A stretch of DNA of 64,000 nt from Euprymna scolopes (lineage: Eukaryota), in the NCBI GenBank assembly GCA_053919585.1, contig CM132785.1; one strand, given 5' to 3'. The translations under genes were made by a program, and so were the position numbers. Below are positions 18,616-59,800 of this stretch, piece by piece. Position 1 is the stretch's first letter. Every line of letters begins with the position of its first letter. The notes below the pieces were generated by a model. It worked only from the letters and a program-made list of their open reading frames with translations, searched no databases and was not told the origin of the DNA.

Positions 18616-19583
18616 ATGGAGCAATTAGCGGAATTCACTAGAACCATGCAATCGGCATTGTTTGCACAACAAATGCAAATGGAATTACTTCAGCAACAAC
18701 AATTGAAGCAAAGCAAAATACTAAAGAGTATTTTAACGCAGCAGAAAGACTGTCGTTTCACTCCTGAAGGAATAGCAAATTCTTTATCCGAATTTGTATA
18801 CGAGCCGACAAATGGGTTAACTTTTCCGGCATATTTTCGGAGATACGAACATATTTTTGCTAAGAGATGTCAGTCTTGGACAGACGAAGAGAAGAGTATC
18901 CTTCTTCTTTAAAACTTGGATCTCAGGAAAATACAAAGTATACGAATTTTATCCTGCCAAAGAAACCTGAAGAGATTTCTTTTAGTGAAACAATAAAAAT
19001 ATTGTCAAACATTTGCAGCGAACGAGATAGTCTATTCTATACACGTTATAAATGTTTAAATATCACGAAGCAGGAGGACGAAGATTTTATTACTTATGCA
19101 GGGAAAGTGAATGCTCATTGGGAATCCTTTGAATTAAAAGACCTCAAAGAGAATATGTTTAAAAGTCTAATCTTTGTGCAAGGTTTAACAGCCTCTAAAG
19201 ATAAGGATATTCGTTCAAGGATATTATCCATTATGAACCAAGACACAAAAATAACGTTACAAAAAGTTACGGAAAAGTGTCAGAAACGGTTAAATTTAAA
19301 GCAGGACAATACAAGCATCGAAGGAAAAAAATTTTGAAGAAAAAATATGGGAAAAAAATGGAAAGGGTTATGAAATGTGCACACGAAAATCCTGTAAGAC
19401 ATGTGGGGGAAAGAACACTTCACTAAAGATTGTTACTTTAAATACAAAATATGTAACAAATGTAATAAAATAGGCCATAAATCAACGGTATGCAGGAAAG
19501 GAAAATACCGAAAAGCAGAAATAAAGACCATTGGTTCTAAAAATGAGTCTTGGTGTGATAAAAGAAAATATATTGAAATTTAA
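18616..19583 (+). pseudogene. gag: Gypsy gag (frameshifted)
   Basis: ORFs 18616-18912, 18867-19337 and 19401-19583 contain EFVYEP..GLTFPAYF.RYE, NFILPKKP, IFVQGL and the zinc knuckle CNKCNKIGHKSTVC. Confidence 0.85.
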
Positions 19584-22500
19584 ATTAATGGCTGTAATGT
19601 GAACTGTCTTCTAGATACGGGAAGCGACTTAAGTATAATTGACGAAGTAACTTGGAAGAAAATTGGGTTTCCAAAGTTACAAAATACAAAAAAAATTGCC
19701 AGAAATGTGTCTGGAAATAAACTAAAATTTAAGGGTGAATTTTTACCAATGTGTCTCTAAAGGAGAATGTTGTGAAAACCAAGTTATATGTCGTACCGGG
19801 GAAAAATTCTAATTTGTTCGGTATAGACTTAATGATTCTTTTTAATTTATGGGGGAAACCCATGAGCTCATTTTGCAATAAAGTAAGTCTGGGAGGTTTA
19901 GAAAATTCTAAACTACCAGGAAAGTTTATTGACGAATTAAAACAAGACTTTAAAGAGGTATTCTCTGAAGGTTTTGGGTTGCTGCACGAAAACGGAGGTG
20001 AAATTTGAACTAAAGGACGAGACTAAACCAGTTTTCAAACCCAAAAGAAAGGTTCCATATTCAGCATTGGAAACTATAGAAAAAGAATTAAAGAGACTTC
20101 AAGATATTGGAGTAATAGAAAAAGTGGACTAATCTGAATGGGCTTCACCCACGGTTTACGTTAAGAAGAAAAATAATAAAATCAGGGTATGCGCGGACTT
20201 TTCGACAGATCTAAATGATTGTCTCAAGAAGCATAATTACCCGCTTCCTACCCCAGAGGAATTTTTTTCGAAGTTAAGCGGAGGAAATTTTTTTACAAAA
20301 ATTGATTTGTCTGAAGCGTATTGGCAAGTAAAAGTCCAGGAAGAGTGTGCTAAGTATCTGACATTAAATACCCATTAGGGACTATTTTCACTAAAACTTT
20401 TGGTTTAAAAGTAGCCCCAAATTTGTTCCAGCAAATTATGGATACAATGCTAGCAGGTTTGGATTTTGCTATGGCTTATCTAGATGACATCCTTATAAGA
20501 AGTAAAAATGTGGAAGAGCATAAGATCCACATTGGCAAAGTATTCGAGAGAATATCAAACTATGGATTGAAAGTGGCTCTCGAAAAATGTAATTTTGAGA
20601 TGGACAAAATTGAATATTTGGGACAAGTGATTGATCGAAATGGTAGAAAACCTAATCCTAATAGGACTGAAGCAATCAAAAACATGCCTAGACCGGAAAA
20701 TATAGTGCAGCTACAGTCATTTTTGGGACTAGCAAATTATTATAATTCTTATATTCCAAATGTGCATGACCTAAGAGCACCTTTAAACGAATTATTGAAA
20801 AAGAATAAAAAATGGCTCTGGACAAATGAATGTGATGACACATTCCTAAAGTTTAAAAAATGTCTGTTATCGGATTTAGCACTAGCTCACTACGATCCGA
20901 AAAAAGAATTAATTGTAGCAGCAGATGCGAGCGAATACGGTTTAGGTGCTGTGCTACTACACAGACTCAAAGATGAATCGACTAAACCAATTATTCATGC
21001 CTCAGGGGTTTTGTTACCCGCAGAAAAAAATTATAGTCAGATAGAAAAAGAAGGTCTGGCAATTGTATACGCCATTAGGAAGTTTCTTAGGTTCATCCAT
21101 GGAAGATTTTTTTTATATTGGAAACGGACCACATACATTTGTTATCGATTTTTGGTTCCAAAAAAGGAGTTCCTACTCATATGGCTTATAGGTTACAAAG
21201 ATGGAGCATGATTCTGTTAAACTACAATTTTAAAATGAAACACCTAGCATCCAGCAACATTGCACACGCAGATGGTTTGTCCAGGTTGATCCCAAATAAA
21301 ACTGCATTACTTGAAGAAACTGTTATAGCTGCACTAAAAGAAGAAAATTAACTAACAAATATATTAATAAATACTGTTAGGGAACTTCCGGTAACACTTG
21401 AGGAAATAAAGAAAGCAGCAAGAATAGATGAATACATTAACAAGATAAAAAACCAAGTAGGACAAAAAGAAAAGAAGAGGAAAGGATTAACAATTTTTCC
21501 ATTTTCAAAGTGCGATGAAACTCTAATGTACGCAGATAGAGTGGTAATACCTCAAGTATTACAGAAGAGAATTTTAAAAGAATTCCACATGGGACATCCT
21601 GGAATCTCCAGAATGAAAGCACTAATGAGAGCATATACGTACTGGCCGTGAATGGATCAGGACATAGAAAAAATGATAAACTTATGTAAGGGTTGCCAAC
21701 TAGCAGCAAAAGCGCAACCCACTAAGACGCAGCCTTGGCCTTAAACAGATATACCATGGACACGGATTCATATAGATTACGCAGGACCTCTAAAAGGATA
21801 TTATTACCTGGTAATAGTGGATAGCATGTCGAAATGGCCAGAAATTTTTAAATTCAAATATCCTACAGCGGCAAACACAATAAAGGCGTTGGACGAGGTA
21901 TTTGGGCGTTTTGGCGTACCAAAAACAATTGTTAGTGTTAATGGCACAATGTTTAAAGGTCAAGAATTTAAGATCTACTGTGAGTCACTGGCCATAGAGC
22001 ATATCACAACGCCAACTTTTAGCCCTCGATCTAACGGACAAGTTGAAAGATTTGTCGATACTTTTAAACGAGCGCTAAAAAAGAACGATAACCTCGACAC
22101 TGAAGAAAAAAGTCTTCAGAAATTTTTAGCAGTGTACATGATAACGCCTAATCCGAATACAAATGCAAATTTATCCCCAGCGGAAATAATGTTTGCCAGA
22201 AAAGTGCGCTCTGTGTTCGACCGGTTAATTCCGAGTAAAAAAGTAAAAAAAGTGTAAAAGATAATGTACGATACAAGATATATAAGGACGGGGATAAAGT
22301 TTTTTTCAACAATTATCGGGCAGGGAAGAGTTTTTGGGAAGAAGGCATAATCTCAAAAAGAATTGGAAGAATGGTCTACATTATAAAAGGTCAGACAATT
22401 TCCCACAAAAAACATATAAACTAACTAATACCCCGATATATTGAAATAGTTAAAAACAATGAAGTACAGATGGAAGTACTGTATGACATTTTTCACATAG

Positions 22501-24324: not shown

Positions 24325-25945
24325 GGTCCTACTGCATTGAAAAGGTAACGTCTGGCCATTGTCAATCAAAATAGTGACTCGAACGAGCTCAGAACGTCAC
24401 AAATTAGTAAGGCATTTACCTGCCTGTGGATTGCTTTGAGTGATACAAAAGTACAAAAGAGATTAGCAACTGCGCCCACAAAAAGATGGGATATCATAGT
24501 CAATGACGATTCTCTCCCGCAAATTATAGTTGAAATGTTAGTTTACTGAAACATAAAAGTATCTAAAAACGAATCTGCCCGAGGTGAGTGGCGTGTACTC
24601 GGACATGAAGTGAATGCATAGGTTCACGCGAGATCTTTTGCTACAGCAATAATCTTAGAACGATTGCGTAATGTTGTAGAAGATTCGTGCTAGCGTAGTC
24701 AGAAAAATAATGCACAACATATAAGTTTGGCGGAAATTTATGCACCGCTGAAAGCGCTTAATCTTGCATTGCAGTGGCAGACCCAGGTCGTACATCTCCA
24801 CACTGACTCATTGTGTGTTTACCACTGGTTAACTGACAACTTAACTGGAAATGCACAGAGTAAGACTAAATCCGCAAGTGAAATGTAGATACGAAGGAGA
24901 CTAGCTATAATAAAGTGTATAGTTGACGAATACAGTTTACATGTTGACATTGCCTTAGTGCCATCGGAGCAGAATTGTACTGATAAGCTGACTCAACTTT
25001 CAAAGGGAATGATAGATATAATGAAGCAGGGATATACTTCTCCGCAACTGACATGCACAACGTTAACAGATAAATTAACACCTGATCAGATCCATGACAT
25101 ACATCAGAAGAGGGAACATGATGGAATCTGTCGAACAACATATTTCCGAAGAGTATGCCCTGCAACTACGAAAGTATCGGTCAAGGCAGCAATACACTCG
25201 GCGAATGGTTTAAACGTATTGATCCAGCACCATTCCGATGGCAAAAAAGGGAAGCATGTCGGATGTTCTTGAACGGGGTCACCTGTTCAAAATCTTGAGA
25301 GATAATGCCTCTATATTTCGATATGAAGAATTTCAGAAATTCACAATCGAATGGGGAGTTAGAATGCGTTACCAATGCCCATATTCTGCTGAAGGAAACG
25401 GAATCGCGGAGCGGTGTACCATTCCGTCAAAGGAATTGCAGCCAGGACGTAGTGTTCGATAACAGAAGCTGTGTCCTGGTGACACACAACTATGATGCAA
25501 CATCATCAACTGAACCAGCCAATGGGATTTACCCCTACGAACAGAGTATAAAAGGCATAGATGTTACACCATCATTAGTCGAGACACCGTATAAAGTGCG
25601 TAAATCATTAAATTCTCAGTGCACTACACGGTGTGAAAGCGGACGAAATGAAAATATAATACGTTCTCAGAATATGTTGGTTGATGGTGTCCCACGTCAT
25701 TTGAAAAAATGTCCGCCCCTATTGTGCCTCCTCTACATCGGAGGACGATGATGAAGGAAAAATACAATCGAGTATGATCCTGATCCTTTGCTGCCCCTTT
25801 CTGATTATCTAAGAAATGATGTCTACGGAACTAGAAGGGGGCATTCTGGTACGTGCTAGTGGCGATGAAAAAGATGGGAACGAGGAAATGATACGTAGAA
25901 GTACACATCGAAGGCGATCAGCATCTCCCTGCTATTTATGTGAGA
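24325..25945 (+). pseudogene. Old Ty3/Gypsy element, part 3: RNase H and integrase
   Basis: KLVRHLPACG, ARGEWRV, NAQHISLAE, LNLALQWQ..VHLHTDS.CVYHW, SASEM*IRRRL, DNASIFR.EEF..F..EWGV, GNGIAER, RRST.RRR. Confidence 0.8.
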
Positions 25946-28420: not shown

Positions 28421-29349
28421 AAAAAATGAGGATAGTAGTAGAAAGACTTCAAATAATACAAGTTTCTACTTAAGGTACACTAAGGTAAGCAACGTAGAGA
28501 ACTGCACAAACGTTTTTATATTAATCTTTAATACGTAATTATTGGTAGAGAACTACACAAAAAATTTCGAAAATCAAGCCGTTTTTATATTAATCTTTAA
28601 ATATTGTTTTCAATTGGACTAGAATCGAATGAAAATTTATCAAATGTTTTGGAAACAAAAATTGATTCTCCTATAAATTGAATCACAGACATAGCAATTT
28701 TCGTGAGGAAATAACTCATTAGCAACCATGAAATGTTAAGTGGATAAGACGGGGATATTTTGTTTTGATTTTCTTTCCAATTTAACTACCTCCTGTATGA
28801 ATAAAAAAGAACATTTAAATATTTTCCTCTGATAAAATTTATTAACATTTGCACACTGACGCAAACACGCAATTAAAAAGAGAATTGGTGATCGCTGAAA
28901 ATACATCTGATCTTCTTAACAACCGAGTCTGCTCAGAAAGCACCGCAGGTTAGTGTTTGCTTAAATGAAAAAAAAAAACAAAAACAAAACAAAAACAGTG
29001 TAACGCAACAGTTGCAATCGCAACACTATTCTATTCATGTAGCTATTTTGCAATTATAATGTTTACTGATAAATTGCTCCACTTGTACCCACATTTATCC
29101 CCATGATGAAAATTTACTATGTGTTGAAAGATTTCTTCTACAATAGGTTTTGAATCGGGCCGATGCGTTTGGTAATTTTATTTATGATCAATAATTGCAG
29201 AACCTACTAACATTCTTGGATTTAACTATGATATCCCCCATCATTTTACTAACTAATTCAACACCCAGACTTTCTCATAGAATCAGACTACTATCAAAGT
29301 ATCCTCATGAACTTGAATGAAAACTTTGCTATTTAGAGATTTATACAGC

Positions 29350-30404
29350 TGTGGTACGATATCTTCACGAACCCGAGTTGGCCGATGGTTTCGTGATTAC
29401 CACATACGTTGACTGGTCTTTCTCTGTTTCCTTCCACGCCCACGTTGCTTTAAGATCCGTAGAAAGAAGAGATGAGTATGGCCCAGACGACGAAGGTTGA
29501 ATTTGTTGCTGGAGGGAAGAAAAGTTGCCAAGCAATCATAGAAAAATGTCTGAAAGCGTTTGTTATAAACAATAACAACGTTTATTAACACAATCTTCAA
29601 ACACCACGCAATGGGAGTGATTGTGGTTGACTGGCGGAATAAAGTTTTCTTAGAAACTCTTGACTGCAATTAAGCAGCGTTGATGAAGAATGACAACGGA
29701 TTTGGTTCTTTAAGCGGCGGCAAAAAAATGAACCAACTCGATTTTTCGCTTTGGGTATCCTCTATTTATTGGCCCGAATACTTGAACAAGCAGTGTCTGA
29801 TTGGCCAGCCAATGGGGATTGCCGACTAATAGCTATCGTCGTAACAATCACTCGGGTTAGCCTTTGATTGGTTTTAGATAATCGGCCAATTAGTTGCAAT
29901 CATTGGGAGGGGCTATACGGAGCAATTCTGTGATTAGTTGATGAATAATGTATAGCCGCCCAGTCCTTGTTCCAAGCTTGTACTCAATTCCAAGTTAGTC
30001 CGACCCAAAAATGATTGCCAACTTAAAAATATATTTATTGTTTATAATTTGATAAATTATGATTTTTCAGCAGGTGCAAACGTCTGCACTTTGTTTTTGT
30101 TTTATCTGTCATTCCCAATTTCTTTGCACTTAAAATGTCGGACTTCCAAACCGAATTAATTTTACTTATATAATTTTGAAAGGTCAATACATCTACAGAT
30201 GGTTTTTGTTTTATTGACAGATTTTTAGGTCAAATCCTGTTCTTGCTAAGGTCGCCATCTCTTTACTACACTTGATTCTTAAAAAATGTTGGCTACCTTA
30301 ACAAATTTTATACTGTTCAATAAAACAATTAATATTATAATTTAATTAATCATTGTTTAATTAACTTCGCCAGTCAACCTTTTGACACTTAATTAAAAGT
30401 GTCA
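29350..30404 (-). repeat. 3' LTR (~1055 bp) of the env-bearing Gypsy
   Basis: Minus strand TG...CA directly after PPT GGGGGAGGAG (30407-30416). Contains CCAAT boxes, a TATA-like motif and AATAAA in the expected order. Confidence 0.75.
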
Positions 30405-31012
30405 TACTCCTCCCCCACTTACCGACATTTAACCTTTGGTTAAAGTCGGTAAATCATGTTTAACGGTACATACAGAAGACATATAATTACAATGATTGAT
30501 TATACAGTTCAGTTTTGTATGTGTCCATAGAAAAATAAATCAAATGTTCATCCTAAAAAACAACCCCATCTTTTTTTTTCTTCCCCCCCCCTTTTTTTTG
30601 ACATTTTAAAATATTACAAAAAATGTTTTCTTTTTTCTTTTTTTTTTTTTACAGAATTATTATCTCTTTTCTTAATATAATGATAGTAATGACAACAACA
30701 ATAATAATAAATGTTCATTGCAGAGTCCTTCATTTTTTTTCATGCATTTGTAGGATTTTTTTTTTTAATGCATTTGTAAAGATTTTTTTAATCGATTGTT
30801 CCAAGTAATTCAGATCATTACACTGAAAGTATCTCCACCGATGGTAATTGCAAGGCTTCTTTCGGGATATTTGTGGTCTGTGGAGTTTGTATGTCACCTA
30901 TTGGTTCAAGTTCGATTTGTTGTTCCAGTCTCTGCTCTTGATCAGTGACAACCGTTCCTGAGCTCCCAACATTCTTGTGCAGTTTAGTTGGTTCATTTCT
31001 CTTAAGCTTACT

Positions 31013-31780
31013 TTAACAATGGCGTACTATCAGGCTTGATGTTAACAAAACTGATACAATTAATAAGATGATGGCTATTACCAAAATTAACCAGGTAGAA
31101 CTACCTACTTGTTCACTTTCTGTTAGGGAATTTTCCTCTCTAAGTGCATCGAGTTTATGTATTAATTCCCTTAAATTTATTTTCTTTAGAGGACTTACGA
31201 CATTAGGGATTGCTTGCCGGGTTATGTTTGGAAATCCTTTTATTAGAGGTTCCCATAGGCTTAATCTACTAGTAAGTGTGATATTCATCAATGGTAAAAA
31301 AGAGTCGCTGGTCTCAAATTTTTCCTCGGCTTGGTAATAGGGAGGAAGGGTTATAGCGCCGCCATAGACCCAACAGCCCAATGGCACCTGCAGAGTGGTC
31401 AACGGAGGAGATATTTTTATTGTTTTTGGAGGTTTTCCGGTACATACCTGAGATAGTTCCAACTCATCTTTCGCTGCTATCGCCCATGCCCCATCTGTTA
31501 TCCTAATAGCTTTTGGCAGCATTACATCTAGGAGGACTTCTATTTGACAATGCTGCCCTATTTCCTTTTTATTATGCTTGTATAATTCGATTACACACAA
31601 ATAGTGATTGCTGAATGTATATATCGGGCTATTTGATACGCAGGTTCCGAGTAGATCATGTGTACATTTTTCTGCCTCGGAAGAGGTAAGCAACATGAAC
31701 TTTTCTCTAGTTTGATCAAGAGCAATATTTTCGGATTCTATTTTGTATTTTATTTTGTTTTGTTTTTCAGACGTATCCAT
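31013..31780 (-). pseudogene. env: Envelope glycoprotein, C-terminal half (baculovirus F-like), N-terminus deleted
   Basis: Lies between integrase and PPT. Cys-patterned ectodomain (KC...GTC...SPIY...LC...HC...VC...GC..ITLP), N-glycosylation sequons (NIT), C-terminal hydrophobic helix WLILVIAIILLIVSVLL. No signal peptide or furin site seen. Confidence 0.7.
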
Positions 31781-31886
31781 AGAAACTTACATAACCATCT
31801 CTCTGTTATATAATGCCGGTTTTACATTTTATCCAGCACACATGCTTGATTCGCTGAGTCACAACTTGGTGCAAGCTGGTGATCAG

Positions 31887-33080
31887 TTATATTATGGGAT
31901 TGGCCCGATGCCAAGTCATCCCTTTTTTATTTTGATAGCTTCTTAATCTGTATTTTAAAGGTGTATCTTCTTTTTCTTGATATCTTTTTCGTAACTCTGA
32001 CAGGGGAAGTTCATCTTCACTCTCCCAACTATCCGATTCATTTTGCACAAAGGCATTTCCTACTTCTTCAATTTCTATTTGTGATTTAGCAATTGGGCTT
32101 GGCTCAATCTCAATTTCTGACTCCGAATCAGTCTCCGAGGGGGCTTCTACCCACCTCGTCCATCTCATACGTGGATTTGTTTCTTTTCTTTTAGGAATTT
32201 CTCATTCTTCTACTCCTGCTAATTTTAAGTCATTTGCATGAGCCTTTTTTACTTTGCCATTTATTTGGTCCCATACAACAAAAGTTACTGGACCTGTCTG
32301 ATTAATTATTCTATAATAAGGAGACCATTTTTCGTTAAGCTTCCCTTGTCGTAGATGTTTCTTATGATACACCGGATCTCCTATTTTGAGGGTTACCTCT
32401 TTCCTCCCCAAGTTTACCCTTTCATTTCGTTTCTTCTGGGCACGTTTTATCCTCTGCCCAGCTTGCATAAATATCTTATGTTGATTTTGGAGGATTATCT
32501 GGTGAAAATCTTCTCCCAGATATTTCCTACGGGGTTTTAATAGATTATCAATAGGCAAGATTACATCTCGACCAAATAGTAAAAAATAAGGGGAAAATCC
32601 GGTCACTTCATTAATAGAAAATCTTATGGCCCCTAATGCCTGGGTCAGGAATAAATCCCAATTTTCCTTGTCGTCTTTAGTGAGCTTTGCCAATGTATCT
32701 CCCAAGAATCGGTGGAACCGCTCAACCTTAGCATAAGCTTGTGGGTGATAGGGGGATGTTACAATGTGCTTGATGTTGAGACCTTCAGTTGTTTGTCTCA
32801 TTACTTCATTAACGTTTTCTGGGCCATTATCAGATACCAGTTCTAAGGGGGTCCCAAAGCGCGGGATTATTTCGGTTAGTAATAGTCTAGCTACAGTCTG
32901 AGCTTTCTTATCTGGTACTGCATAGGCTTCCGTCCAGTTAGTTAGCCAATCCACAAAGCTAACTATGTATTTATTTCCCTGTGAAGTTTCCCCATAGGGT
33001 CCGGAGACATCTACACTAATTTTTTCAAAGGGATAAAATGGGACATCAGTTTCTTCAAGGGGTGCAATTTCAGATTTAAC
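31887..33080 (-). pseudogene. pol: Gypsy integrase catalytic core and C-terminus (HHCC domain lost)
   Basis: PFEKISVD..GP, VSDNGPEN, SPYHPQ..AKVERF (D,D,E intact), SPYFLLFGR. Open from ~33080 to the stop at 32202; the acidic tail ORF 31887-32168 follows. Confidence 0.92.
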
Positions 33081-33353
33081 AGTAACTAAAGCAAATGGAC
33101 AGAAAATGAAACTAAATGGTATGATCCACCTACCTATTAAAATCGGAAAGATTAAGACAGGTTCAAAATTGTACATTGCACCTGACTTAGACCAAACCAT
33201 GATTTTAGGGGAGGATTGGTTAAAAATAAATAAAGCACAATTATGTTTTAATCCAAATCGGCTAACGATAAGAGGGGTAGAAATTCCCTTGGGTAATAGT
33301 TCCGGCGGGGAAATTAAAATCTACACTACGGACAGTGTAAAATTATCCCCACG
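33076..33353 (+). pseudogene. Gypsy aspartic-protease C-terminal fragment, inverted relative to integrase
   Basis: KANGQKMKLNGMIHLPIKIG...YIAPDLDQTMILGEDWL matches the retropepsin ANG...ILG.DWL pattern. Confidence 0.75.
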
Positions 33354-33394
33354 AACTCGGGTTCGTGAAGATATCGTACCACATAGCTTCATTT

Positions 33395-33520
33395 CAAATA
33401 GTTGGAAATGCTTTATCAATCATTAAATCATTTCTCTCTGATAGGTTCATAAGAGTAGTGGTTGATACGTAGAAATCGGATGCTCACAGTATTAATGCTG
33501 GAGTCCCTCAGAGTTCCATC
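33395..33520 (+). pseudogene. Short CR1-type LINE RT fragment
   Basis: SIIKSFLSDRFIRVVV....INAGVPQ.SI, same family as 42505-43785. Confidence 0.75.
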
Positions 33521-42387: not shown

Positions 42388-44235
42388 GGCATCACCACAT
42401 TATCAAGGCCCAGAGGCCACTCAAGGATAAGGGTTAAAGAGTGTACAGTAGAAGTTGGTCAATATAGTAATCATTAGTAATGAAAATTTGGTAAATTTAA
42501 TAACTTATATGGAACGGCTCATCAAGAACTTATTTACCTTAGACTTGAACACAACCATATTGTAGTCAGCCGGAAAGCAGGAAAACGGAAGACAATTCCA
42601 CAGGCGTGCAGTTCTAAGAAAGAAGCTTTGTTCATGGAATCTATGTTTAGGTTTAGGCACAGATAAAGAGTGGGGGAAATTATTGATAGTGTTTACAGCT
42701 AGACGAGTGTTTCTTGTGAAAGTTTGGCGAGGGGGGACCATAGATTGAAGCTCAGTTGAACACTTTCCATGAAAATAACGATACATCAGAGACAAACTCG
42801 CAACATCTCTTCTGTGAGATAGAGGTTGTAAGGAGGAGAAAAGGACATCTCCTACGAGGCTACGAAGTCTATTTTGAACTCTATCAAGGCAGGACAAGTC
42901 CTTTCTAGCAGCTCCTGCCCAGATGTGGCAACAGTATTCCATCCTTGGACGTACCTGGCTCTTATATAGATAGAGAATAGCATCAGCAGTGAGATATCTA
43001 CTGGATCGATAGAAAGATCCCACCATTTTTCCAGCGGCCTTGGCAACAGATTTGATATACGTGTTCCATTTAAGATCAGGAGTAATGGTCAAGCCCAGAA
43101 GCTTGTCAAAACTTGAGGCCTCCTGAAGACGAGAGCCATTCATTTCAATTGATGACAAATGTGGATTAAAATGTTGATGATGTAAAGAGAGAAGCTTGGT
43201 TTTAGATGCATTAAAAGTAACCAGCCACTCCTTTCCCCATTGTACTACATGCTCAAGATCAGAGGAGAGAGAATTGGAGAGTACTTGCTCGTTTACTGTT
43301 TTAGATGTGGTACCATAAATGGTAGTGTCGTCAGCATAAATGTCTACAAATGATGTAAGGATATGATTTGGAAGATCATTAATGTAGATCAGGAAAAGAG
43401 TTGGGCCCAGGATGGATCCCTGAGGGACACCGGCATTAATACTGAGAGCTTCTGATTTTTGCCCCTCAACTACTACTCTTATGAACCTATCAGAAAGAAA
43501 TGATTTAATAATTGAGAAGACTTTTCCAGCTATACCATAGCTAGCGATCTTATGAAGTAAACCTTTATGCCATACCCTATCAAAGGCTTTAGATATGTCA
43601 AGAGCAATTTCCCTAGAAAGATTGCCACCGTCGAGAGATTTGCTAATCCTATGCGATATAACTGTAAGGACATCTGCTGTAGATCTAGCAGAACGGAAAC
43701 CATATTGAGTGTCACTAAGAAGGTTATTTTTGTTGAGATGTTTGATTACTTCTGTATTTAACACAGATTCTAGCAACTTACTCATGACGCACAGGAGACT
43801 TATTGGCCTGTACTGAGAGGGGGATGAGCGATCACCTGAATTCTTAAATACAGGGCATACTGATGAGATTTTCCAGGGAGATGGGAAACTATTCTCCTTA
43901 AGACAACGTTTAAACAGTTTTGTAAGTATGGGCGCTAGTTCAGGTTGAAGTATTTTGAGTACTATAATTGGAATACCATCAGGGCCAGTTGCTTTACTGG
44001 AATCAAGGTTTTTGATTAGCTTGGCAACATCACGTACAGATATACGTATATCACATAGCGTGTTTTCTGATACAGGAGGAAATATTGGGGGTTGGCGGTC
44101 TTGGTCGCAAAGGGTAGAATTAGCTGCAAAGTTCTTGACAAAGAGTTGGCTTTGTCTGATGCTGACGAGATTACCTCAGGTCCATTGATAATAGTTGGGA
44201 TGGAGCACACGCTTCTGTTCAGGATTCTGTTTGCT
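42355..44235 (-). mobile_element. Young 5'-truncated CR1-type LINE with poly(A) tail
   Basis: Poly-T at 42355-42382, short 3' UTR, long RT reading frame. Confidence 0.93.
42505..43785 (-). CDS. LINE ORF2 reverse transcriptase domain (5'-truncated; frame stays open upstream through KATGPDGI...YRPISLL)
   Basis: QYGFR, LDISKAFDRV, GVPQGSILGP.LF..YIND, YADD, LGL..DLKW, RPRMEYC; no stops in 426 aa. Confidence 0.9.
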   Translation of the reverse strand: MSKLLESVLNTEVIKHLNKNNLLSDTQYGFRSARSTADVLTVISHRISKSLDGGNLSREIALDISKAFDRVWHKGLLHKIASYGIAGKVFSIIKSFLSDRFIRVVVEGQKSEALSINAGVPQGSILGPTLFLIYINDLPNHILTSFVDIYADDTTIYGTTSKTVNEQVLSNSLSSDLEHVVQWGKEWLVTFNASKTKLLSLHHQHFNPHLSSIEMNGSRLQEASSFDKLLGLTITPDLKWNTYIKSVAKAAGKMVGSFYRSSRYLTADAILYLYKSQVRPRMEYCCHIWAGAARKDLSCLDRVQNRLRSLVGDVLFSSLQPLSHRRDVASLSLMYRYFHGKCSTELQSMVPPRQTFTRNTRLAVNTINNFPHSLSVPKPKHRFHEQSFFLRTARLWNCLPFSCFPADYNMVVFKSKVNKFLMSRSI

Positions 44236-44443: not shown

Positions 44444-44529
44444 GAAAAAAATCCAGTAAAGTGCTCGATCGTAGATGTGAGAGCTGAAGATACAATATTT
44501 ATTATTACACTATATATACATATTTCAAG

Positions 44530-44604
44530 GTCGTACCATTGGTTTCGATACACCGAAAACAGTAATAATATACTGTGGAAAATCGGTATAATCTCTTCGG
44601 CGAC
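44530..44604 (-). ncRNA. Minimal type-I hammerhead-like motif (inverted copy)
   Basis: Reverse complement of 45973-46047. Confidence 0.55.
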
Positions 44605-44746
44605 AAAGAAAAATCTGAAACTAATGCAAAATGAACGAACATAGAAGAAACGCTAGACGAGCGTTTAAGACTCAGAATTTCATATTTAAAAAAATATCGT
44701 TTTAAAACTGACGTTAATAGATTATTATAGAAGAAAGAAAGGAAGA

Positions 44747-44781
<35 letters not shown>

Positions 44782-45068
44782 CGTGCGTGCATAGCGGGGA
44801 AGGGGGTGCGATGGAAAACTCTCTAAAAAATATAAAGGTCCTGTTAAAGCCATATTAATAAATAAAAGTAGGACAATTAACGATAATAAATAATGAGAAA
44901 GGCATGAATATATTAATATGATTTATAAATATAGCCTGTATGAATATTAAAAACGAAAAATAGCCTGTATGAATATTAAAAACGAAATCTTCAGACAATG
45001 TCCCCACAAAAGAAAATTCCTCCTCGCCAAATGGCCTAACAACAGCATAACTTAACCGATTCACACTC

Positions 45069-45340
45069 CATTTACACAAAGACTCCTAATTCACACATAG
45101 ACACCTAAATACCACATTCACCTCTCACTCTAAACCTCAAATCATCTCTCTTCTAATCATACCTCAACATTCCTCGCCACCTTACCTCCTTACTATCACA
45201 CACCCTATTTACACAAAGACACCCTATTCACGTATAGACACCTAAATTCCACATTCACCTCTCATTCTAATCTCCAAACCAACTCTCTTCTACTCATATC
45301 TCAACCTTTCTCACCACCTAATATCCTTAACTTTACCATA
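45069..45340. repeat. Diverged ~138-bp tandem duplication in the Penelope 3' UTR
   Basis: tttacacaaagac...atagacacctaaat.ccacattcacctctca occurs twice. Confidence 0.75.
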
Positions 45341-45791
45341 TAACCCCCCCAATAATAAGGATAACCTTTATAGAGAAACTATTCCCCTTCCCCCCCACAA
45401 CCTTCGCATCTGATAGTTGTATAGTCTTTTAATATTTATTAATTTCCTTTAATTATTTTAATTATCTTAAATTTCTCCATTCACTATTATTCTCTCATAA
45501 TTAAAATATTAATATTTTTAAAATAAATTTAAAATTCTTTTAAAGTTCTTATTTTTTATTTATTTATTAAATTTACCTTATTTATCTTTATCCTTATTTT
45601 ATTTAATTTAATTCATTTAATTAATTTAAATAATTTTAAAATTTTTATAAATCATATTAATATATTCATGCCTTTCTCATTATTTATTACCGTTAATTGT
45701 CCTACTTTTATTTATTAATATGGCTTTAACAGGACCTTTATATTTTTTAGAGAGTTTTCCATCGCACCCCCTTCCCCGCTATGCACGCACG

Positions 45792-45830
<39 letters not shown>

Positions 45831-45972
45831 TCTTCCTTTCTTTCTTCTATAATAATCTATTAACGTCAGTTTTAAAACGATATTTTTTTAAATATGAAAT
45901 TCTGAGTCTTAAACGCTCGTCTAGCGTTTCTTCTATGTTCGTTCATTTTGCATTAGTTTCAGATTTTTCTTT

Positions 45973-46047
45973 GTCGCCGAAGAGATTATACCGATTTTCC
46001 ACAGTATATTATTACTGTTTTCGGTGTATCGAAACCAATGGTACGAC
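45973..46047 (+). ncRNA. Minimal type-I hammerhead-like motif with CCGAAGA core variant
   Basis: Stem I GTCG/CGAC, CCGAAGA, long stem II (gat.ataccga/tcggtgtatc), GAAA, minimal stem III ACCA-A-TGGT, GTA site. Confidence 0.6.
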
Positions 46048-46080
46048 CTTGAAATATGTATATATAGTGTAATAATAAAT

Positions 46081-46087
<7 letters not shown>

Positions 46088-50832: not shown

Positions 50833-53800
50833 TACGAACGGATATTTTAAGCATATTGAGCACGAAGGGATATTTTAAGCATATTAAGTACGCAATGATA
50901 TTTTAAGCATATTGAGAACGAAATGATATTTTAAGCATATTGAGTACGACAGGATATTTAAAGCATATTGAGTACGAAATGATATTTTAAGCATATTGAG
51001 TACGAAAGGTTATTTTAATCATATTGAGTACGAAATGATATTTTAAGCATATTGAGTACAAAATGATATTTTAAGCATATTGAGTACGAAATGATATTTT
51101 AAGCATATTGAGTACGAAATGTAATTGTAAGCATAATGAGTACGAAATGATATGTAAGCATAATGAGTACGAAATGATATGTTAAGCACATTGAGTACGA
51201 AATGATATTTTAAGCATATTGAGTACGAAATGATATTTTAAGCATATTGAGTACGAAATGTAATTGTAAGCATAATGAGTACGAAAGGATATGTAAGCAT
51301 ATTGAGTACGAAAGGATATTTTAAGCATATTGAGTACGAAATGTAATTGTAAGCATAATGAGTACGAAAGGATATGTAAGCATATTGAGTACGAAAGGAT
51401 ATTTTAAGCATATTGAGTACGAAATGATATTTTAAGCATATTGAGTACGAAATGATATTTTAAGCATATTGAGTACGAAATGATATTTTAAGCATATTGA
51501 GTACGAAATGATATTTTAAGCATATTGAGTACGAAATGATATTTTAAGCATATCCATTACGACAGGATATTTTAATCATATTGAGTACGAAAGGATATTT
51601 TAAGCATATTGAGTACAAAATGATATTTTAAGCATATTGAGTACGAAAATATATTTTAAGCATATTGAGTACGAAATTATATTTTAAGCATATTGAGTAC
51701 GAAAGTATATTTTAAGCATACTGAGTACGACAGGATATTTGAAGCATATAAAGTACGAAATGATATTTTAAGCATATTGAGTACGAAATGATATTTTAAG
51801 CATATTGAGTACGAAATGATATTTTAAGCATATTGAGTACGAAAGGATATTGTAAGCATATTGAGTACGAAATGATATGTTAAGCACATTGAGTACGAAA
51901 TGATATTTTAAGCATATTGAGTACGAAAGGATATTGTAAGCATATTGAGTACGAAATGATATGTTAAGCACATTGAGTACGAAATGATATTTTAAGCATA
52001 TTGAGTACGAAATGATATTTTAAGCATATTGAGTACGAAATAATATGTTAAGCACAGTGAGTACGAAATGATATTTTAAGCATATTGAGTACGAAATGAT
52101 ATTTTAAGCATATTGAGTACGAAATGATATTTTAAGCATATTGAGTACGAAATGATATGTTAAGCACATTGAGTACGAAATGATATTTTAAGCATATTGA
52201 GTACGAAATGATATTTTAAGCATATTGAGTACGAAATGATATTTTAAGCATATTGAGTACGAAATGATATGTTAAGCACATTGAGTACGAAATGATATTT
52301 TAAGCATATTGAGTACGAAATGATATTTTAAGCATATTGAGTACGAAATGATATTTTAAGCATATTGAGTACGAAATGATATGTTAAGCACATTGAGTAC
52401 GAAATGATATTTTAAGCATATTGAGTACGAAATGATATTTTAAGCATATTGAGTACGAAATGATATTTTAAGCATATTGGGTACGACATGATATTTTAAG
52501 CATATTGAGTACGAAATGATATTTTAAGCATATTGAGTACGAAAGGATATTGTAAGCATATTGAGTACGAAATGATATGTTAAGCACATTGAGTACGAAA
52601 GGATATTTTAAGCATATTGAGTACGAAATGATATTTTAAGCATATTGAGTACGAAATGATATTTTAAGCATATTGAGTACGAAATGATATGTTAAGCACA
52701 TTGAGTACGAAATGGTATTTTAAGCATATTGAGTACGAAATGATATTTTAAGCATATTGAGTACGAAATGATATTTTAAGCATATTGGGTACGACATGAT
52801 ATTTTAAGCATATTGAGTACGAAATGATATGTTAAGCCCATTGAGTAGCAAAAGGATATTTTAAGCATATTGAGTACGAAATGATATTTTAAGCATATTG
52901 AGTACGAAATGATATTTTAAGCATATTGAGTACGAAATGATATTTTAAGCATATTGAGTACGAAATGATATTTTAAGCATATTGAGTACGAAATGATATT
53001 TTAAGCATATTGAGTACGAAATGATATTTTAAGCATATTGAGTACGAAATGATATTTTAAGCATATTGAGTACGAAATGATATTTTAAGCATATTGAGTA
53101 CGAAATGATATTTTAAGCATTTTGAGTACGAAATGATATGTTAAGCACATTGAGTACGAAATGATATTTTAAGCATATTGAGTACGAAATGATATTTTAA
53201 GCATATTGAGTACGAAATGATATGTTAAGCACATTGAGTACGAAATGATATTTTAAGCATATTGAGTACGAAATGATATTTTAAGTATATTGAGTACGAA
53301 ATGATATTTTAAGCATATTGAGTACGAAATGATATGTTAAGCACATTGAGTACGAAATGATATTTTAAGCATATTGAGTACGAAATGATATTTTAAGCAT
53401 ATTGAGTACGAAATGATATTTTAAGCATATTGAGTACGAAATGATATTTTAAGCATATTGAGTACGAAATGATATTTTAAGCATATTGGGTACGACATGA
53501 TATTTTAAGCATATTGAGTACGAAATGATATTTTAAGCATATTGAGTACGAAATGATATTTTGAGCACATTGAGTACGAAATGATATTTTAAGCATATTG
53601 AGTACGAAATGATATTTTAAGCATATTGAGTACGAAATGATATTTTAAGCATATTGAGTACGAAAGGATATTTTAAGCATATTGAGTACGAAATGATATT
53701 TTAAGCATATTGAGTACGAAATGATATTTTAAGCATATTGAGTACGAAAGGATATTTTAAGCATATTGAGTACGAAATGATATTTTAAGCATATTGAGTA

Positions 53801-56800
53801 CGAAATGATATTTTAAGCATATTGAGTACGAAAGGATATTTTAAGCATATTGAGTACGAAAGTATATTTTAAGCATACTGAGTACGACAGGATATTTGAA
53901 GCATATTGAGTACGAAATGATATTTTAAGCATATTGAGTACGAAATGATATTTTAAGCATATTGAGTACGAAAGGATATTTTAAGCATATTGAGTACGAA
54001 ATGATATTTTAAGCATATTGAGTACGAAATGATATTTTAAGCATATCCATTACGACAGGATATTTTAATCATATTGAGTACGAAAGGATATTTTAAGCAT
54101 ATTGAGTACAAAATGATATTTTAAGCATATTGAGTACGAAAATATATTTTAAGCATATTGAGTACGAAATTATATTTTAAGCATATTGAGTACGAAAGTA
54201 TATTTTAAGCATACTGAGTACGACAGGATATTTTAAGCATATTAAGTACGAAATGATATTTTAAGCATATTGAGTACGAAATGATATTTTAAGCATATTG
54301 AGTACGAAATGATATTTTAAGCATATTGAGTACGAAAGGATATTGTAAGCATATTGAGTACGAAATGATATGTTAAGCACATTGAGTACGAAATGATATT
54401 TTAAGCATATTGAGTACGAAAGGATATTGTAAGCATATTGAGTACGAAATGATATGTTAAGCACATTGAGTACGAAATGATATTTTAAGCATATTGAGTA
54501 CGAAATGATATTTTAAGCATATTGAGTACGAAATAATATGTTAAGCACAGTGAGTACGAAATGATATTTTAAGCATATTGAGTACGAAAGTATATTTTAA
54601 GCATATTGAGTACGAAATGATATTTTAAGCATATTGAGTACGAAATGATATGTTAAGCACATTGAGTACGAAATGATATTTTAAGCATATTGAGTACGAA
54701 ATGATATTTTAAGCATATTGAGTACGAAATGATATTTTAAGCATATTGAGTACGAAATGATATGTTAAGCACATTGAGTACGAAATGATATTTTAAGCAT
54801 ATTGAGTACGAAATGATATTTTAAGCATATTGAGTACGAAATGATATTTTAAGCATATTGAGTACGAAATGATATGTTAAGCACATTGAGTACGAAATGA
54901 TATTTTAAGCATATTGAGTACGAAATGATATTTTAAGCATATTGAGTACGAAATGATATTTTAAGCATATTGGGTACGACATGATATTTTAAGCATATTG
55001 AGTACGAAATGATATTTTAAGCATATTGAGTACGAAAGGATATTGTAAGCATATTGAGTACGAAATGATATGTTAAGCACATTGAGTACGAAAGGATATT
55101 TTAAGCATATTGAGTACGAAATGATATTTTAAGCATATTGAGTACGAAATGATATTTTAAGCATATTGAGTACGAAATGATATGTTAAGCACATTGAGTA
55201 CGAAATGGTATTTTAAGCATATTGAGTACGAAATGATATTTTAAGCATATTGAGTACGAAATGATATTTTAAGCATATTGGGTACGACATGATATTTTAA
55301 GCATATTGAGTACGAAATGATATGTTAAGCCCATTGAGTAGCAAAAGGATATTTTAAGCATATTGAGTACGAAATGATATTTTAAGCATATTGAGTACGA
55401 AATGATATTTTAAGCATATTGAGTACGAAATGATATTTTAAGCATATTGAGTACGAAATGATATTTTAAGCATATTGAGTACGAAATGATATTTTAAGCA
55501 TATTGAGTACGAAATGATATTTTAAGCATATTGAGTACGAAATGATATTTTAAGCATATTGAGTACGAAATGATATTTTAAGCATATTGAGTACGAAATG
55601 ATATTTTAAGCATATTGAGTACGAAATGATATGTTAAGCACATTGAGTACGAAATGATATTTTAAGCATATTGAGTACGAAATGATATTTTAAGCATATT
55701 GAGTACGAAATGATATGTTAAGCACATTGAGTACGAAATGATATTTTAAGCATATTGAGTACGAAATGATATTTTAAGTATATTGAGTACGAAATGATAT
55801 TTTAAGCATATTGAGTACGAAATGATATGTTAAGCACATTGAGTACGAAATGATATTTTAAGCATATTGAGTACGAAATGATATTTTAAGCATATTGAGT
55901 ACGAAATGATATTTTAAGCATATTGAGTACGAAATGATATTTTAAGCATATTGAGTACGAAATGATATTTTAAGCATATTGGGTACGACATGATATTTTA
56001 AGCATATTGAGTACGAAATGATATTTTAAGCATATTGAGTACGAAATGATATTTTGAGCACATTGAGTACGAAATGATATTTTAAGCATATTGAGTACGA
56101 AATGATATTTTAAGCATATTGAGTACGAAATGATATTTTAAGCATATTGAGTACGAAAGGATATTTTAAGCATATTGAGTACGAAATGATATTTTAAGCA
56201 TATTGAGTACGAAATGATATTTTAAGCATATTGAGTACGAAAGGATATTTTAAGCATATTGAGGACGAAATGATATTTTAAGCATATTGAGTACGAAATG
56301 ATATTTTAAGCATATTGAGTACGAAAGGATATTTTAAGCATATTGAGTACGAAAGTATATTTTAAGCATACTGAGTACGACAGGATATTTGAAGCATATT
56401 GAGTACGAAATGATATTTTAAGCATATTGAGTACGAAAGGATATTTTAAGCATATTGAGTACGAAATGATATTTTAAGCATATTGAGTACGAAAGGATAT
56501 TTTAAGCATATTGAGTACGAAATGATATTTTAAGCATATTGAGTACGAAATGATATTTTAAGCATATTGAGTACGAAATGATATTTTAAGCATATTTAGT
56601 ACGAAATGATATTTTAAGCACATTGAGTACGAAATGATATTTTAAGCATATTGAGTACGAAAGGATATTGTAAGCATATTGAGTACGAAATGATATTTTA
56701 AGCATATTGAGTACGGAATGATATTTTAAGCATATTGAGTACGAAATGATATGTTAAGCATATTGAGTACGAAATGATATTTTAAGCATATTGAGTACGA

Positions 56801-59800
56801 AAGGATATTTTAAGCATATTGAGTACGAAATGATATTTTAAGCATATTGAGTACGAAATGATATTTTAAGCATATTGAGTACGAAATGATATTTAAGCAT
56901 ATTGAGTACGAAATGATATGTTAAGCATATTGAGTACGAAATGATATTTTAAGCATATTGAGTACGAAAGGATATTTTAAGCATATTGAGTACGAAATGA
57001 TATTTTAAGCATATTGAGTACGAAATGATATTTTAAGCATATTGAGTACGAAATGATATTTTAAGCATATTGAGTACGAAATGATATTTTAAGCATATTG
57101 AGTACGAAATGATATTTTAAGCATATTGAGTACGAAATGATATTTTAAGCATATTGAGTACGAAATGATATTTTAAGCATATTGAGTACGAAATGATATT
57201 TTAAGCATATTGAGTACGAAATGATATTTTAAGCATATTGAGTACGACAGGATATTTTAAGCATATTGAGTACGAAATGATATTTTAAGCATATTGAGTA
57301 CGAAATGATATTTTAAGCATATTGAGTACGAAATGATATTTTAAGCATATTGAGTACGAAAGGATATTTTAAGCATATTGAGTACGAAATGATATTTTAA
57401 GCATATTGGGTACGAAATCATATTTTAAGCATATTGAGTACGAAAGGATATTTTAAGCATATTGAGTACGAAATTATATTTTAAGCATATTGAGTACGAA
57501 ATGATATTTTAAGCATATTGAGTACGAAATGATATGTTAAGCCCATTGAGTAGCAAAAGGATATTTTAAGCATATTGAGTACGAAATGATATTTTAAGCA
57601 TATTGAGTACGAAATGATATTTTAAGCATATTGAGTACGAAATGATATTTTAAGCATATTGAGTACGAAATGATATTTTAAGCATATTGAGTACGAAATG
57701 ATATTTTAAGCATATTGAGTACGAAATGATATTTTAAGCATATTGAGTACGAAATGATATTTTAAGCATATTGAGTACGAAATGATATTTTAAGCATATT
57801 GAGTACGAAATGATATTTTAAGCATATTGAGTACGAAATGATATTTTAAGCATATTGAGTACGAAAGGATATTTTAAGCATATTGAGTACGAAATGATAT
57901 TTTAAGCATATTGAGTACGAAATGATATTTTAAGCATATTGAGTACGAAAGGATATTTTAAGCATATTGAGTACGAAATGATATTTTAAGCATATTGAGT
58001 ACGAAATGATATTTTAAGCATATTGAGTACGAAATGATATGTTAAGCCCATTGAGTAGCAAAAGGATATTTTAAGCATATTGAGTACGAAATGATATTTT
58101 AAGCATATTGAGTACGAAATGATATTTTAAGCACATTGAGTACGAAATGATATTTGTAGCATATTGAGTACGAAATGATATTTTAAGCATATTGAGTACG
58201 AAAGGATATTTTAAGCATATTGAGTACGAAATGATATGTTAAGCCCATTGAGTAGCAAAAGGATATTTTAAGCATATTGAGTACGAAATGATATTTTAAG
58301 CATATTGAGTACGAAATGATATTTAAAGCATATTGAGTACGAAATGATGTTTTAAGCATATTGAGTACAAAATGATATTTTAAGCATATTGTGTACGAAA
58401 TGATATTTTAAGCATATTGAGTACGAAATGATATTTTAAGCATATTGAGTACGAAATGATATTTTAAGCATATTGAGTACGACAGGATATTTTAATCATA
58501 TTGAGTACGAAAGGATATTTTAAGCATATTGAGTACGAAATGATATTTTAAGCATATTGAGTACGAAATGATATTTTAAGCATATTGAGTACGAAAGGAT
58601 ATTTTAAGCATATTGAGTACGAAATGATATTTTAAGCATATTGAGTACGAAATGATATTTTAAGCATATTGAGTACGAAATGATATTTTAAGCATATTGA
58701 GTACGAAATGATATTTTAAGCATATTGAGTACGAAATGATATTTAAAGCATATTGAGTACGAAATGATATTTTAAGCATATTGAGTACGAAATGATATTT
58801 TAAGCATATTGAGTACGAAATGATATTTTAAGCATATTGAGTACGAAATGATATTTTAAGCATTTTGAGTACGACAGGATATTTTAAGCATATTGAGTAC
58901 GAAATGATATTTTAAGCATATTGAGTACGAAATGATATTTTAAGCATATTGAGTACGAAATGATATTTTAAGCATATTGAGTACGAAAGGATATTTTAAG
59001 CATATTGAGTACGAAAGGATATTTTAAGCATATTGAGTACGAAATGATATTTTAAGCATATTGAGTACGACATGATATTTTAAGCATATTGAGTACGAAA
59101 GGATATTTTAAGCATATTGAGTACGAAATGATATTTTAAGCATATTGAGTACGAAATGATATTTTAATCATATTGAGTACGAAAGGATATTTTAAGCATA
59201 TTGAGTACGAAATGATATTTTAAGCATATTGAGTACGAAATGATATTTTAAGCATATTGAGTACGAAAGGATATTTTAAGCATATTGAGTACGAAATGAT
59301 ATTTTAAGCATATTGAGTACGACATGATATTTTAAGCATATTGAGTACGAAAGTATATTGTAATCATATTGAGTACGAAAGGGTATTTAAAGCATATTGA
59401 GTACGAAATGATATTTTAAGCATATTGAGTGCGAAATGATATTTTAAGCATATTGAGTACGAAATGATATTTTAAGCATATTGAGTACGAAATGATATTT
59501 TAATCATATTGAGTACGAAATGATATTTTAAGCACATTGAGTACGAAAGAATATTGTAAGCATATTGAGTACGAAATGATATTTTAAGCATATTGAGTAC
59601 GAAATGATATTTAAAGCATATTGAGTACGAAATGATATTTAAGCATATTGAGTACGAAATGATATTTTAAGCATATTGAGTACGAAATGATATTTTAAGC
59701 ATATTGAGTACGAAATGATATTTTAAGCATATTGAGTACGGAATGATATTTTAAGCATATTGAGTACGACAGGATATTTAAAGCATATTGAGTACGAAAT

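What the first reader, a model, noticed from the sequence alone, without database searches (positions are those of the whole stretch)
29346..33387. env-bearing Gypsy element with two U5 ends: an LTR retroelement converted into a TIR-bounded unit
Seen: the last 30 nt of the LTR (TGTGGTACGATATCTTCACGAACCCGAGTT, 29350-29379) recur as a perfect inverted copy at 33354-33383. The flanks are CAGC and TAGC, a 4-bp TSD with one transition. Inside are LTR, PPT, a partial env, an integrase core with D,D,E intact, and then an inverted protease fragment; RT, RNase H, gag and the 5' LTR are absent. Known: Gypsy integrases join CA-ending termini and make 4-6-bp TSDs. Ginger DNA transposons use Gypsy-like integrases with TGT..ACA TIRs and 4-bp TSDs. 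Inference: integrase inserted an aberrant cDNA carrying U5 att sites at both ends, giving a Ginger-like architecture directly from an LTR element. It could be a one-off accident or a founder of a TIR-type derivative family.
Basis: partly seen in the sequence, partly recalled or inferred. Interest (0 to 1): 0.75.

Follow-up and report, generated by a model that had tools for sequence, protein, structure and literature searches.

The report
Broken retroelement with two identical ends
A decayed copy of an envelope-carrying retrotransposon has the same end sequence at both sides, in mirror image, probably from a one-off copying error; it has the outline once proposed as a first step from a retrotransposon to a DNA transposon, but nothing shows that it ever moved again.

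Summary
A perfect 30-nt inverted repeat (29350-79 / 33354-83) bounds 4,034 bp of a Gypsy element with F-type env (errantivirus-like). The minus strand carries the integrase core, the rear half of env, a polypurine tract and a putative 1,057-bp LTR. The plus strand carries a protease fragment fused to the last 30 nt of that LTR.

New here: both junctions overlap by microhomology (about 9 nt inverted at 33069-77; at least 4 nt at 33354-57). A third deletion removes the front of env. A sister copy has a similar pol-to-LTR-end fusion, which ties the repeat to the LTR. The 30-nt arm ends in the loop of a terminal hairpin.

Best reading (0.45): one nascent minus strand switched template twice, giving a cDNA with U5 at both ends, which integrase inserted once. 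The site duplication (CAGC/TAGC) is weak support, about 1.3- to 3-fold over chance, and a flank-continuity test was inconclusive, so two head-to-head copies joined by deletion remain possible (0.25).

It is not a Ginger: the integrase lacks its zinc finger and carries a stop, there is no PBS, and no second copy was found. Genome-wide copy number could not be checked.

The parts
29346..29349 (+). left host flank CAGC, candidate 4-bp target-site duplication
   Evidence: sequence; chance level 6.5% for at least 3 of 4
29350..30406 (-). putative 3' LTR, 1,057 bp, ending in CA at 29350; its inferred start after the purine tract does not begin with the canonical TG
   Evidence: purine tract and boundary; 29439-29368 matches the tail of sister protein P0130, 19 of 24 residues, E 1.5e-7; size within the 371-1,847 bp of the 10 mollusc F-env elements with LTR coordinates among 15 rows seen; boundaries inferred
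29350..29379 (+). left arm of the 30-nt perfect inverted repeat (last 30 nt of U5)
29350..29404 (.). imperfect terminal hairpin of the LTR: two 7-bp stems (29350-56 with 29398-404; 29365-71 with 29390-96); the 30-nt arm ends in its loop
   Evidence: RNA fold z -1.75; 11 of 200 shuffles fold as well; borderline
30407..30416 (-). polypurine tract candidate (10 purines); a second, A-rich purine run at 30599-30569 is an alternative
   Evidence: choice between them is inference
30818..31750 (-). rear half of an F-type env with transmembrane segment and tail; one in-frame stop at 31013-15; signal peptide, furin site and fusion peptide region missing
   Evidence: 96.8% to P0121 over 310 aa, 81.6% to residues 348-597 of P0122; P0122 matches Pfam Baculo_F, E 4e-17
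31751..31886 (-). junction 3 (env front deleted near 31750) and a short unassigned stretch between pol and env
   Evidence: env similarity stops abruptly at 31750 in 4 of 4 relatives
31887..33077 (-). integrase core and C-terminal part with intact D,D(35)E; zinc-finger domain absent; in-frame stop at 32202-04, similarity continues to about 31938
33069..33077 (.). junction 1: inversion point with about 9 nt shared by the integrase (minus) and protease (plus) pieces
   Evidence: unrearranged protease-region copy P0245 agrees down to 33069 then stops; integrase relatives agree from 33077
33069..33357 (+). inverted protease C-terminal half and linker, without the catalytic motif
33354..33357 (+). 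junction 2: at least 4 nt shared by the pol linker and the LTR end
   Evidence: Pro at 33349-51 in 71 of 71 relatives with the motif, Thr/Ser at 33355-57 in 64 of 71, next residue matches 1 of 71; inference from protein columns
33354..33383 (+). right arm of the inverted repeat (last 30 nt of U5, ending in CA)
33384..33387 (+). right host flank TAGC, candidate target-site duplication
33384..33520 (+). host flank: fragment of a LINE reverse-transcriptase gene, solid from 33398
   Evidence: 84% to 43533-43411 and 83% to 18001-17881

Best explanation
A dead, one-off insertion of an errantivirus-like Gypsy element whose cDNA was made wrongly. Steps: (1) in a particle holding two RNA copies, one tRNA-primed minus strand ran normally through U5, R, U3, env and integrase (inferred from Gypsy biology). 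(2) The second tRNA-primed strand copied only the last 26-30 nt of U5, up to the loop of the terminal hairpin, then jumped by at least 4 nt of microhomology to the pol linker behind the protease (junction shown; timing inferred). (3) After about 290 nt it switched again, by about 9 nt of inverted microhomology, onto the first minus-strand DNA at the start of the integrase core and copied it to its end (junction shown; timing inferred). (4) The product had a U5 end on both sides, and an intact integrase supplied in trans inserted it in one reaction with a 4-bp duplication (inferred). (5) It then decayed: one change in the duplication, two nonsense codons; the env deletion may be older or later. 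With no PBS, no 5' LTR and no zinc finger it should neither retrotranspose nor excise itself.
For: Both boundaries stop exactly at the CA of the same LTR end. Both junctions lie 290 nt apart on the one strand that starts like a tRNA-primed minus strand, so a single strand history explains both. Overlap at junction 1 is bracketed from both sides by unrearranged relatives; overlap at junction 2 by column conservation. Sister copy P0130 runs from integrase straight into the last ~90 nt of the same LTR, so pol-to-U5 fusions recur in this family. In HIV-1, deletions running from upstream into the 3' LTR were seen in 24 of 88 proviruses and inversions in 2 proviruses (1.3% each of the non-clonal set), and the authors ascribe the LTR deletions to reverse transcription (PMC9278108, passages). 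The unit sits inside one gap-free contig stretch, 7.4 kb from the nearest N run. 3 of 4 flank bases match.
Against: The duplication is imperfect although the copy is young (96.8% env identity) and the arms are 30 of 30 identical; likelihood ratio over chance only about 1.3-3.4. The right flank is LINE sequence almost from the boundary, while LINE similarity in the left flank is not significant: 1 of 48 test settings gave P below 0.05 (0.038), and none of the 24 against the best-kept LINE copy went below 0.35 (one search gave 0.10-1.0). The family's normal duplication length is unknown. The hairpin loop could as well attract a later DNA-level deletion. Microhomology does not separate reverse-transcriptase switching from end-joining repair. 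No report of a two-U5 provirus turned up (searches returned 0 papers), so the prior is low.
Confidence: 0.45

Rival explanations
1. Two separate insertions of the same family lay head to head; a deletion joined the integrase of one to the protease of the other and removed both 5' ends with the host DNA between; the right copy was already, or later became, a pol-to-U5 deletion derivative. The flank match is chance. This is close to the route Bao et al. proposed for Ginger1 TIRs.
For: LINE sequence begins at the right boundary with no significant continuation on the left; chance of at least 3 of 4 is 6.5%, 9% if 4-6 bp are allowed; pol-to-U5 deletion copies exist (P0130).
Against: Needs two close insertions and two or three deletions; no other copy of this LTR end in 64 kb; a weak LINE-like run of about 16-20 nt does cross into the left flank against one LINE copy.
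Confidence: 0.25
2. Two different cDNAs each gave a U5 end to one integration complex; the host then joined the two dangling tails by microhomology (junction 1), and the resulting long inverted repeat lost most of one arm, breaking at the hairpin loop (junction 2).
For: Same flush ends, near-duplication and microhomologies; the inferred U3 start is non-canonical, which would favour U5 ends if it predates insertion; aberrant HIV ends can be joined to further viral DNA in either orientation (PMC5041404, passages).
Against: Needs a chromosome break repaired without loss of host bases, plus a separate deletion; two-molecule integration is known to me only from in-vitro work (recalled).
Confidence: 0.1
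3. A normal provirus was rearranged in place: replication or repair switched templates three times, deleted the 5' part and left short inverted copies of protease and U5, the last switch using the short terminal repeat shared by U3 and U5.
For: The order integrase - protease - U5 - flank equals the original order with each piece flipped in place; short templated inversions with microhomology are typical of such repair (recalled).
Against: Needs a third switch landing exactly on the LTR end and the flank; the inferred U3 start matches the U5 end at only 5 of 8 bases.
Confidence: 0.1
4. Assembly or library chimera.
For: The assembly is gapped (5 N runs) and shows perfect inverted duplications beside gaps (44490-44777 / 45800-46087; 2177-2212 / 2537-2572). 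Inverted microhomology joins are typical of amplification chimeras, and 30 nt equals the overlap of a k=31 graph (both recalled).
Against: No N within 7 kb; a graph misjoin could swap the right flank but cannot create the 4- and 9-nt overlap junctions.
Confidence: 0.07
5. The 30-nt arms are TIRs of an unrelated DNA transposon that captured Gypsy fragments.
For: TGTGG fits the TGTNR terminus of Ginger (PMC2836005).
Against: P0130 links the same terminal sequence to this family's integrase in another copy; the right arm is fused directly to pol; target is neither CCGG/CCGT nor RTATAY.
Confidence: 0.03

Closest known systems
Ty3/Gypsy errantiviruses with F-type env, non-insect ('ancient') group (PMC13524379; passages and 15 mollusc rows of supplementary table 1 seen)
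   Same: Protease-RT-RNase H-integrase pol relatives at 51-72% (full length) and up to 84% (fragments) identity; F-type env; LTR size in range.
   Different: Only the 3' part is left, with an inverted protease piece and an inverted U5 end where the 5' LTR should be; no gag, RT, RNase H or PBS. Clade placement by tree was not done.
Ginger1 and Ginger2/Tdd DNA transposons (PMC2836005; abstract, first part of results, discussion and passages read)
   Same: TGTNR termini in inverted orientation around a Gypsy-type DDE core; 4-bp flank repeat as in Ginger1; matches in outline the paper's guess that Ginger1 TIRs came from two oppositely oriented LTRs flanking an integrase.
   Different: TIR 30 bp (Ginger1 about 40-270); target CAGC/TAGC (Ginger1 CCGG/CCGT, Ginger2 6-bp RTATAY); no H2C2 finger, no YPYY region, no OTU or Ulp1 domain; integrase is a close relative of RT-bearing pol; single copy as far as seen.
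Defective retroviral proviruses with asymmetric LTRs, inversions or aberrant ends (PMC9278108, PMC5041404; passages only)
   Same: Deletions running from the body into the 3' LTR, internal inversions, extra viral DNA in either orientation at one end.
   Different: In the passages seen those keep a 5' LTR or have one host-joined ragged end; none is described with a flush U5 end on both sides.
GingerRoot (PMC6839031; passages only)
   Same: Integrase-related DDE enzyme between TIRs.
   Different: 6-bp duplication, 100-150-bp TIRs, mostly TA termini, multicopy family.

Membership tests
Errantivirus-like Gypsy (derivative of) | Gypsy-type integrase belonging to an RT-bearing pol | tested here: met
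   Best full-length relatives (69-72% identity) carry RT and RNase H Pfam domains
Errantivirus-like Gypsy (derivative of) | env of F or gB type downstream of pol | tested here: met
   82% to P0122, which matches Baculo_F; rear half only
Errantivirus-like Gypsy (derivative of) | Intact gag-pol-env between two direct LTRs with PBS | tested here: not met
   No second LTR in direct orientation, no RT/RNase H inside; a defective derivative, not an intact member
Errantivirus-like Gypsy (derivative of) | Placement in the published RT or env trees | not tested
Ginger1 | TIRs of about 40-270 bp with TGTNR ends | tested here: not met
   TGTNR present, but the repeat is 30 bp and is an LTR end
Ginger1 | 4-bp CCGG or CCGT duplication | tested here: not met
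   CAGC/TAGC
Ginger1 | Transposase with YPYY, H2C2 finger, DDE, GPY/F and OTU or Ulp1 domain | tested here: not met
   Only rve core by Pfam; similarity starts after the second Cys of the finger; a GPV motif at 32294 is the likely GPY/F equivalent (label recalled)
Ginger2/Tdd | 6-bp RTATAY target and H2C2 finger | tested here: not met
   6-bp register TACAGC / TAGCTT; finger absent
Any TIR DNA transposon | Several copies with the same ends and different target duplications | not testable with these tools
   No eukaryotic genome collection; one copy in the window; no protein with the junction-1 fusion among 244 relatives or 24 representative hits
Single integrase-mediated insertion | Target-site duplication with contiguous empty site | tested here: inconclusive

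The most novel reading that the evidence does not exclude
The unit was inserted once as a cDNA with two U5 ends and has since been copied as a unit, by an integrase or transposase acting in trans on its ends, so that other loci carry the same junctions with different target duplications: a living example of the Gypsy-to-Ginger 'reverse evolution' step. The milder part of this claim (one integrase insertion of a two-U5 product, never remobilised) has about 0.55 probability and about 0.45 interest.
Probability: 0.05. Interest if true: 0.8.

Novelty: new variant of a known kind. Interest (0 to 1): 0.4.

Why it matters
[quoted passage not shown] This locus has that outline in a young family, with junctions still readable, and suggests a shorter route: one faulty reverse transcription. 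If such two-U5 copies can be counted across genomes, the supply rate of Ginger-like precursors becomes measurable. As a single decayed copy it shows that the raw material arises, not that it can move.

Tried and rejected
Exact search for the 30-mer in bacterial and archaeal genome contigs, in the hope of host contamination: 0 matches. Profile search of the same collection: 5 loci of 29 pattern matches; L001 and L002 are distant Gypsy relatives (48% and 44%) and showed no usable LTR ends; L003-L005 (27-33%) were not examined further. Empty-site continuity through the host LINE: inconclusive. Search for another copy of junction 1 as a fused protein: none; the best hit P0245 is an antisense frame of a normal protease region; weak evidence because animal genomes are unevenly covered. 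The open frame across junction 1, with ATGs at 33200 and 33176, is not a sign of selection, since the same antisense frame is open in P0245. Right flank read as a PBS: rejected, it does not start with TGG and is LINE. Autointegration or nested insertion: rejected, no LTR end is joined to internal element sequence. A shifted register gives a perfect AGCT repeat (29347-50 / 33385-88) but would need one end a base short and the other a base long; not preferred. DNA fold of 121 nt at the left end was not significant (z -0.29). Literature: searches returned 0 papers; one search listed 4 of 4, 25 of 145, 20 of 149, 1 of 1, 15 of 145; none of the listings described a two-U5 insertion. Most subscription and older papers are outside the library, so absence from print is not shown.
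Full report
Setting. The window is AT-rich animal DNA (about 25-41% GC) from a gapped assembly (5 N runs), with LINE fragments, microsatellites and a 28-bp satellite. The nearest named relatives of the element's proteins are from molluscs at 51-56% identity, so the host is probably a lophotrochozoan invertebrate (inference). No eukaryotic DNA collection was available, so everything about other copies comes from protein databases.

Observation. The 30-nt inverted repeat is exact and ends sharply on both sides. It is far beyond chance (2 matches of an 18-mer with up to 3 mismatches, 0.03 expected). Of 8 perfect non-simple inverted repeats of 20 nt or more in bases 1-50700, the other 7 are pairs of LINE copies or lie near assembly gaps. 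The unit spans 29350-33383.

Anatomy. Minus strand: integrase from 33077 to about 31938, 58-66% identical over the aligned length to the five closest full-length pol proteins, D,D(35)E intact, one in-frame stop at 32202-04, zinc-finger part missing: the Cys found in 86 of 86 relatives with the anchor motif (of 120) is absent. Then env from 31750 to 30821, 300 of 310 residues identical to P0121 and covering only residues 348-597 of the 599-aa P0122, with one in-frame stop; P0122 matches Pfam Baculo_F, so the parent is an F-env errantivirus-like Gypsy as described in PMC13524379 (passages and part of supplementary table 1 seen). Then a 10-nt purine tract at 30416-30407 and a putative LTR of 1,057 bp ending in CA at 29350. 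Plus strand: the rear of the protease and its linker, 33069-33357, followed by the last 30 nt of the LTR.

Is the repeat really an LTR end? No second LTR is present, so this was open. P0130, a relative 84% identical over the integrase, continues directly into 24 residues that match a reading frame of 29439-29368 (19 of 24 identical, E 1.5e-7). So another copy of the family carries the same terminal sequence, fused to pol about 90 nt from the end. This is 1 protein of 244 examined. It argues against a foreign DNA-transposon TIR and shows that pol-to-U5 fusions recur.

Junctions. Junction 1 (inversion): P0245, an antisense frame of an unrearranged protease region, agrees with the window down to 33069 and then diverges completely; close integrase relatives (P0128, P0170) agree from 33077. 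About 9 nt therefore belong to both parents. Junction 2: the linker motif shows Pro in 71 of 71 relatives where it was found (of 75 protease hits) and Thr/Ser in 64 of 71 at 33355-57, inside the repeat arm, while the next residue matches 1 of 71; at least 4 nt are shared. The arm ends in the loop of a 55-nt terminal hairpin of borderline stability (11 of 200 shuffles as good). Junction 3 removes about 1 kb of env; a distant relative, L002, has a further 304-codon frame between pol and env, so the loss may be larger.

Was it one insertion? This is the weak link. Random site pairs match at 3 or more of 4 bases 6.5% of the time; a true duplication at 1-3% divergence per copy shows exactly one mismatch 7.5-20% of the time, against 5.9% by chance. 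The right flank is a LINE fragment, 84% identical to the copy at 43533-43411, which offered a test: if the flanks were once contiguous the left flank should continue the LINE. Against one copy the alignment crosses 20 nt into the left side, but across 48 settings only 1 reached P below 0.05, and none against the best-kept copy. The result neither supports nor refutes contiguity.

Mechanism. Read from 33383 downwards, the minus strand begins exactly as a tRNA-primed minus strand would, jumps after 26-30 nt to pol, copies about 290 nt, then changes polarity onto integrase and runs out through env and the LTR. Two microhomology-guided switches by one nascent strand, in a particle with two RNA copies, give a linear DNA with U5 at both ends, which a normal integrase could insert. 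The junctions are shown; their timing and the single insertion are inferred. I give this 0.45, a two-molecule integration with later repair 0.10, two head-to-head copies joined by deletion 0.25, in-place rearrangement of a normal provirus 0.10, an artefact 0.07 and foreign TIRs 0.03. HIV-1 offers partial precedents: body-to-3'-LTR deletions and inversions (PMC9278108, passages) and aberrant ends joined to further viral DNA (PMC5041404, passages).

Comparison with Ginger. The unit works like nothing active: it has no PBS or 5' LTR for retrotransposition, and its integrase lacks the finger that both Ginger groups keep (PMC2836005; abstract, first results part, discussion and passages read). TIR length, target sequence and domain content all fail the Ginger1 and Ginger2 tests. 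What it shares is the outline of the precursor that paper proposed: two oppositely oriented LTR ends around an integrase. That retroviral integrases need the zinc-finger domain for end processing and joining, and do not normally excise, is recalled knowledge; the paper itself calls the excision mechanism unknown.

Novelty. A new variant of a known kind: a rearranged, defective errantivirus-like copy. I found no description of a natural insertion with two flush U5 ends (listings only, and the library omits most older and subscription papers; supplements of these papers were not read except part of one table). No second copy of the junctions was found in 244 relatives or 24 representative hits, which is weak evidence.

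Verdict. Real and unusual, most likely dead on arrival. Interest 0.40; it would rise to about 0.8 if the same junctions were found at other loci with different target duplications (probability about 0.05).

Noticed in passing
window 18864-22257 (+): A second, distantly related Gypsy-type pol (RT, RNase H, integrase; Pfam; 28-42% to this clade) lies between two LINE pieces (23105-22879 and 18035-16974) that abut on the LINE copy at 42505-44175; no clean TG..CA ends seen at the two breaks.
   Followed up: partly
window 42505-44175 (-): LINE reverse-transcriptase frame open for 556 codons (Pfam RVT_1 E 4.5e-36), with at least six older fragments elsewhere in the window.
   Followed up: partly
window 50833-64000: 28-bp satellite, about 470 copies at 94% match, strong GC skew, running off the window end.
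   Followed up: no
window 44490-46087, 1415-3618, 2177-2572: Perfect or near-perfect inverted duplications beside N gaps, probably gap-filling artefacts; the 1456-1691 / 3300-3573 pair at 76-90% could be a real inverted-repeat element.
   Followed up: no
protein P0130: Sister-family integrase fused to the last ~90 nt of the LTR: a second pol-to-U5 deletion.
   Followed up: partly
protein P0127: Matches the protease region at residues 7-48 (55%) and the integrase at 220-496 in a 496-aa protein, suggesting another internally deleted copy.
   Followed up: no
L002 1906-2817; L001 and L002 as a whole: A 304-codon frame without Pfam match between pol and env in a related element. Both contigs are filed under a bacterial genome assembly but encode Gypsy pol, so they look like animal host DNA.
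   Followed up: partly
window 30384-30406: A short inverted repeat at the inferred start of the LTR, whose first bases are not the canonical TG.
   Followed up: no
window 24889-25751 (+): Two frames of 127 and 150 codons that look like a decayed integrase-region remnant by eye; no Pfam match at E 0.01.
   Followed up: no
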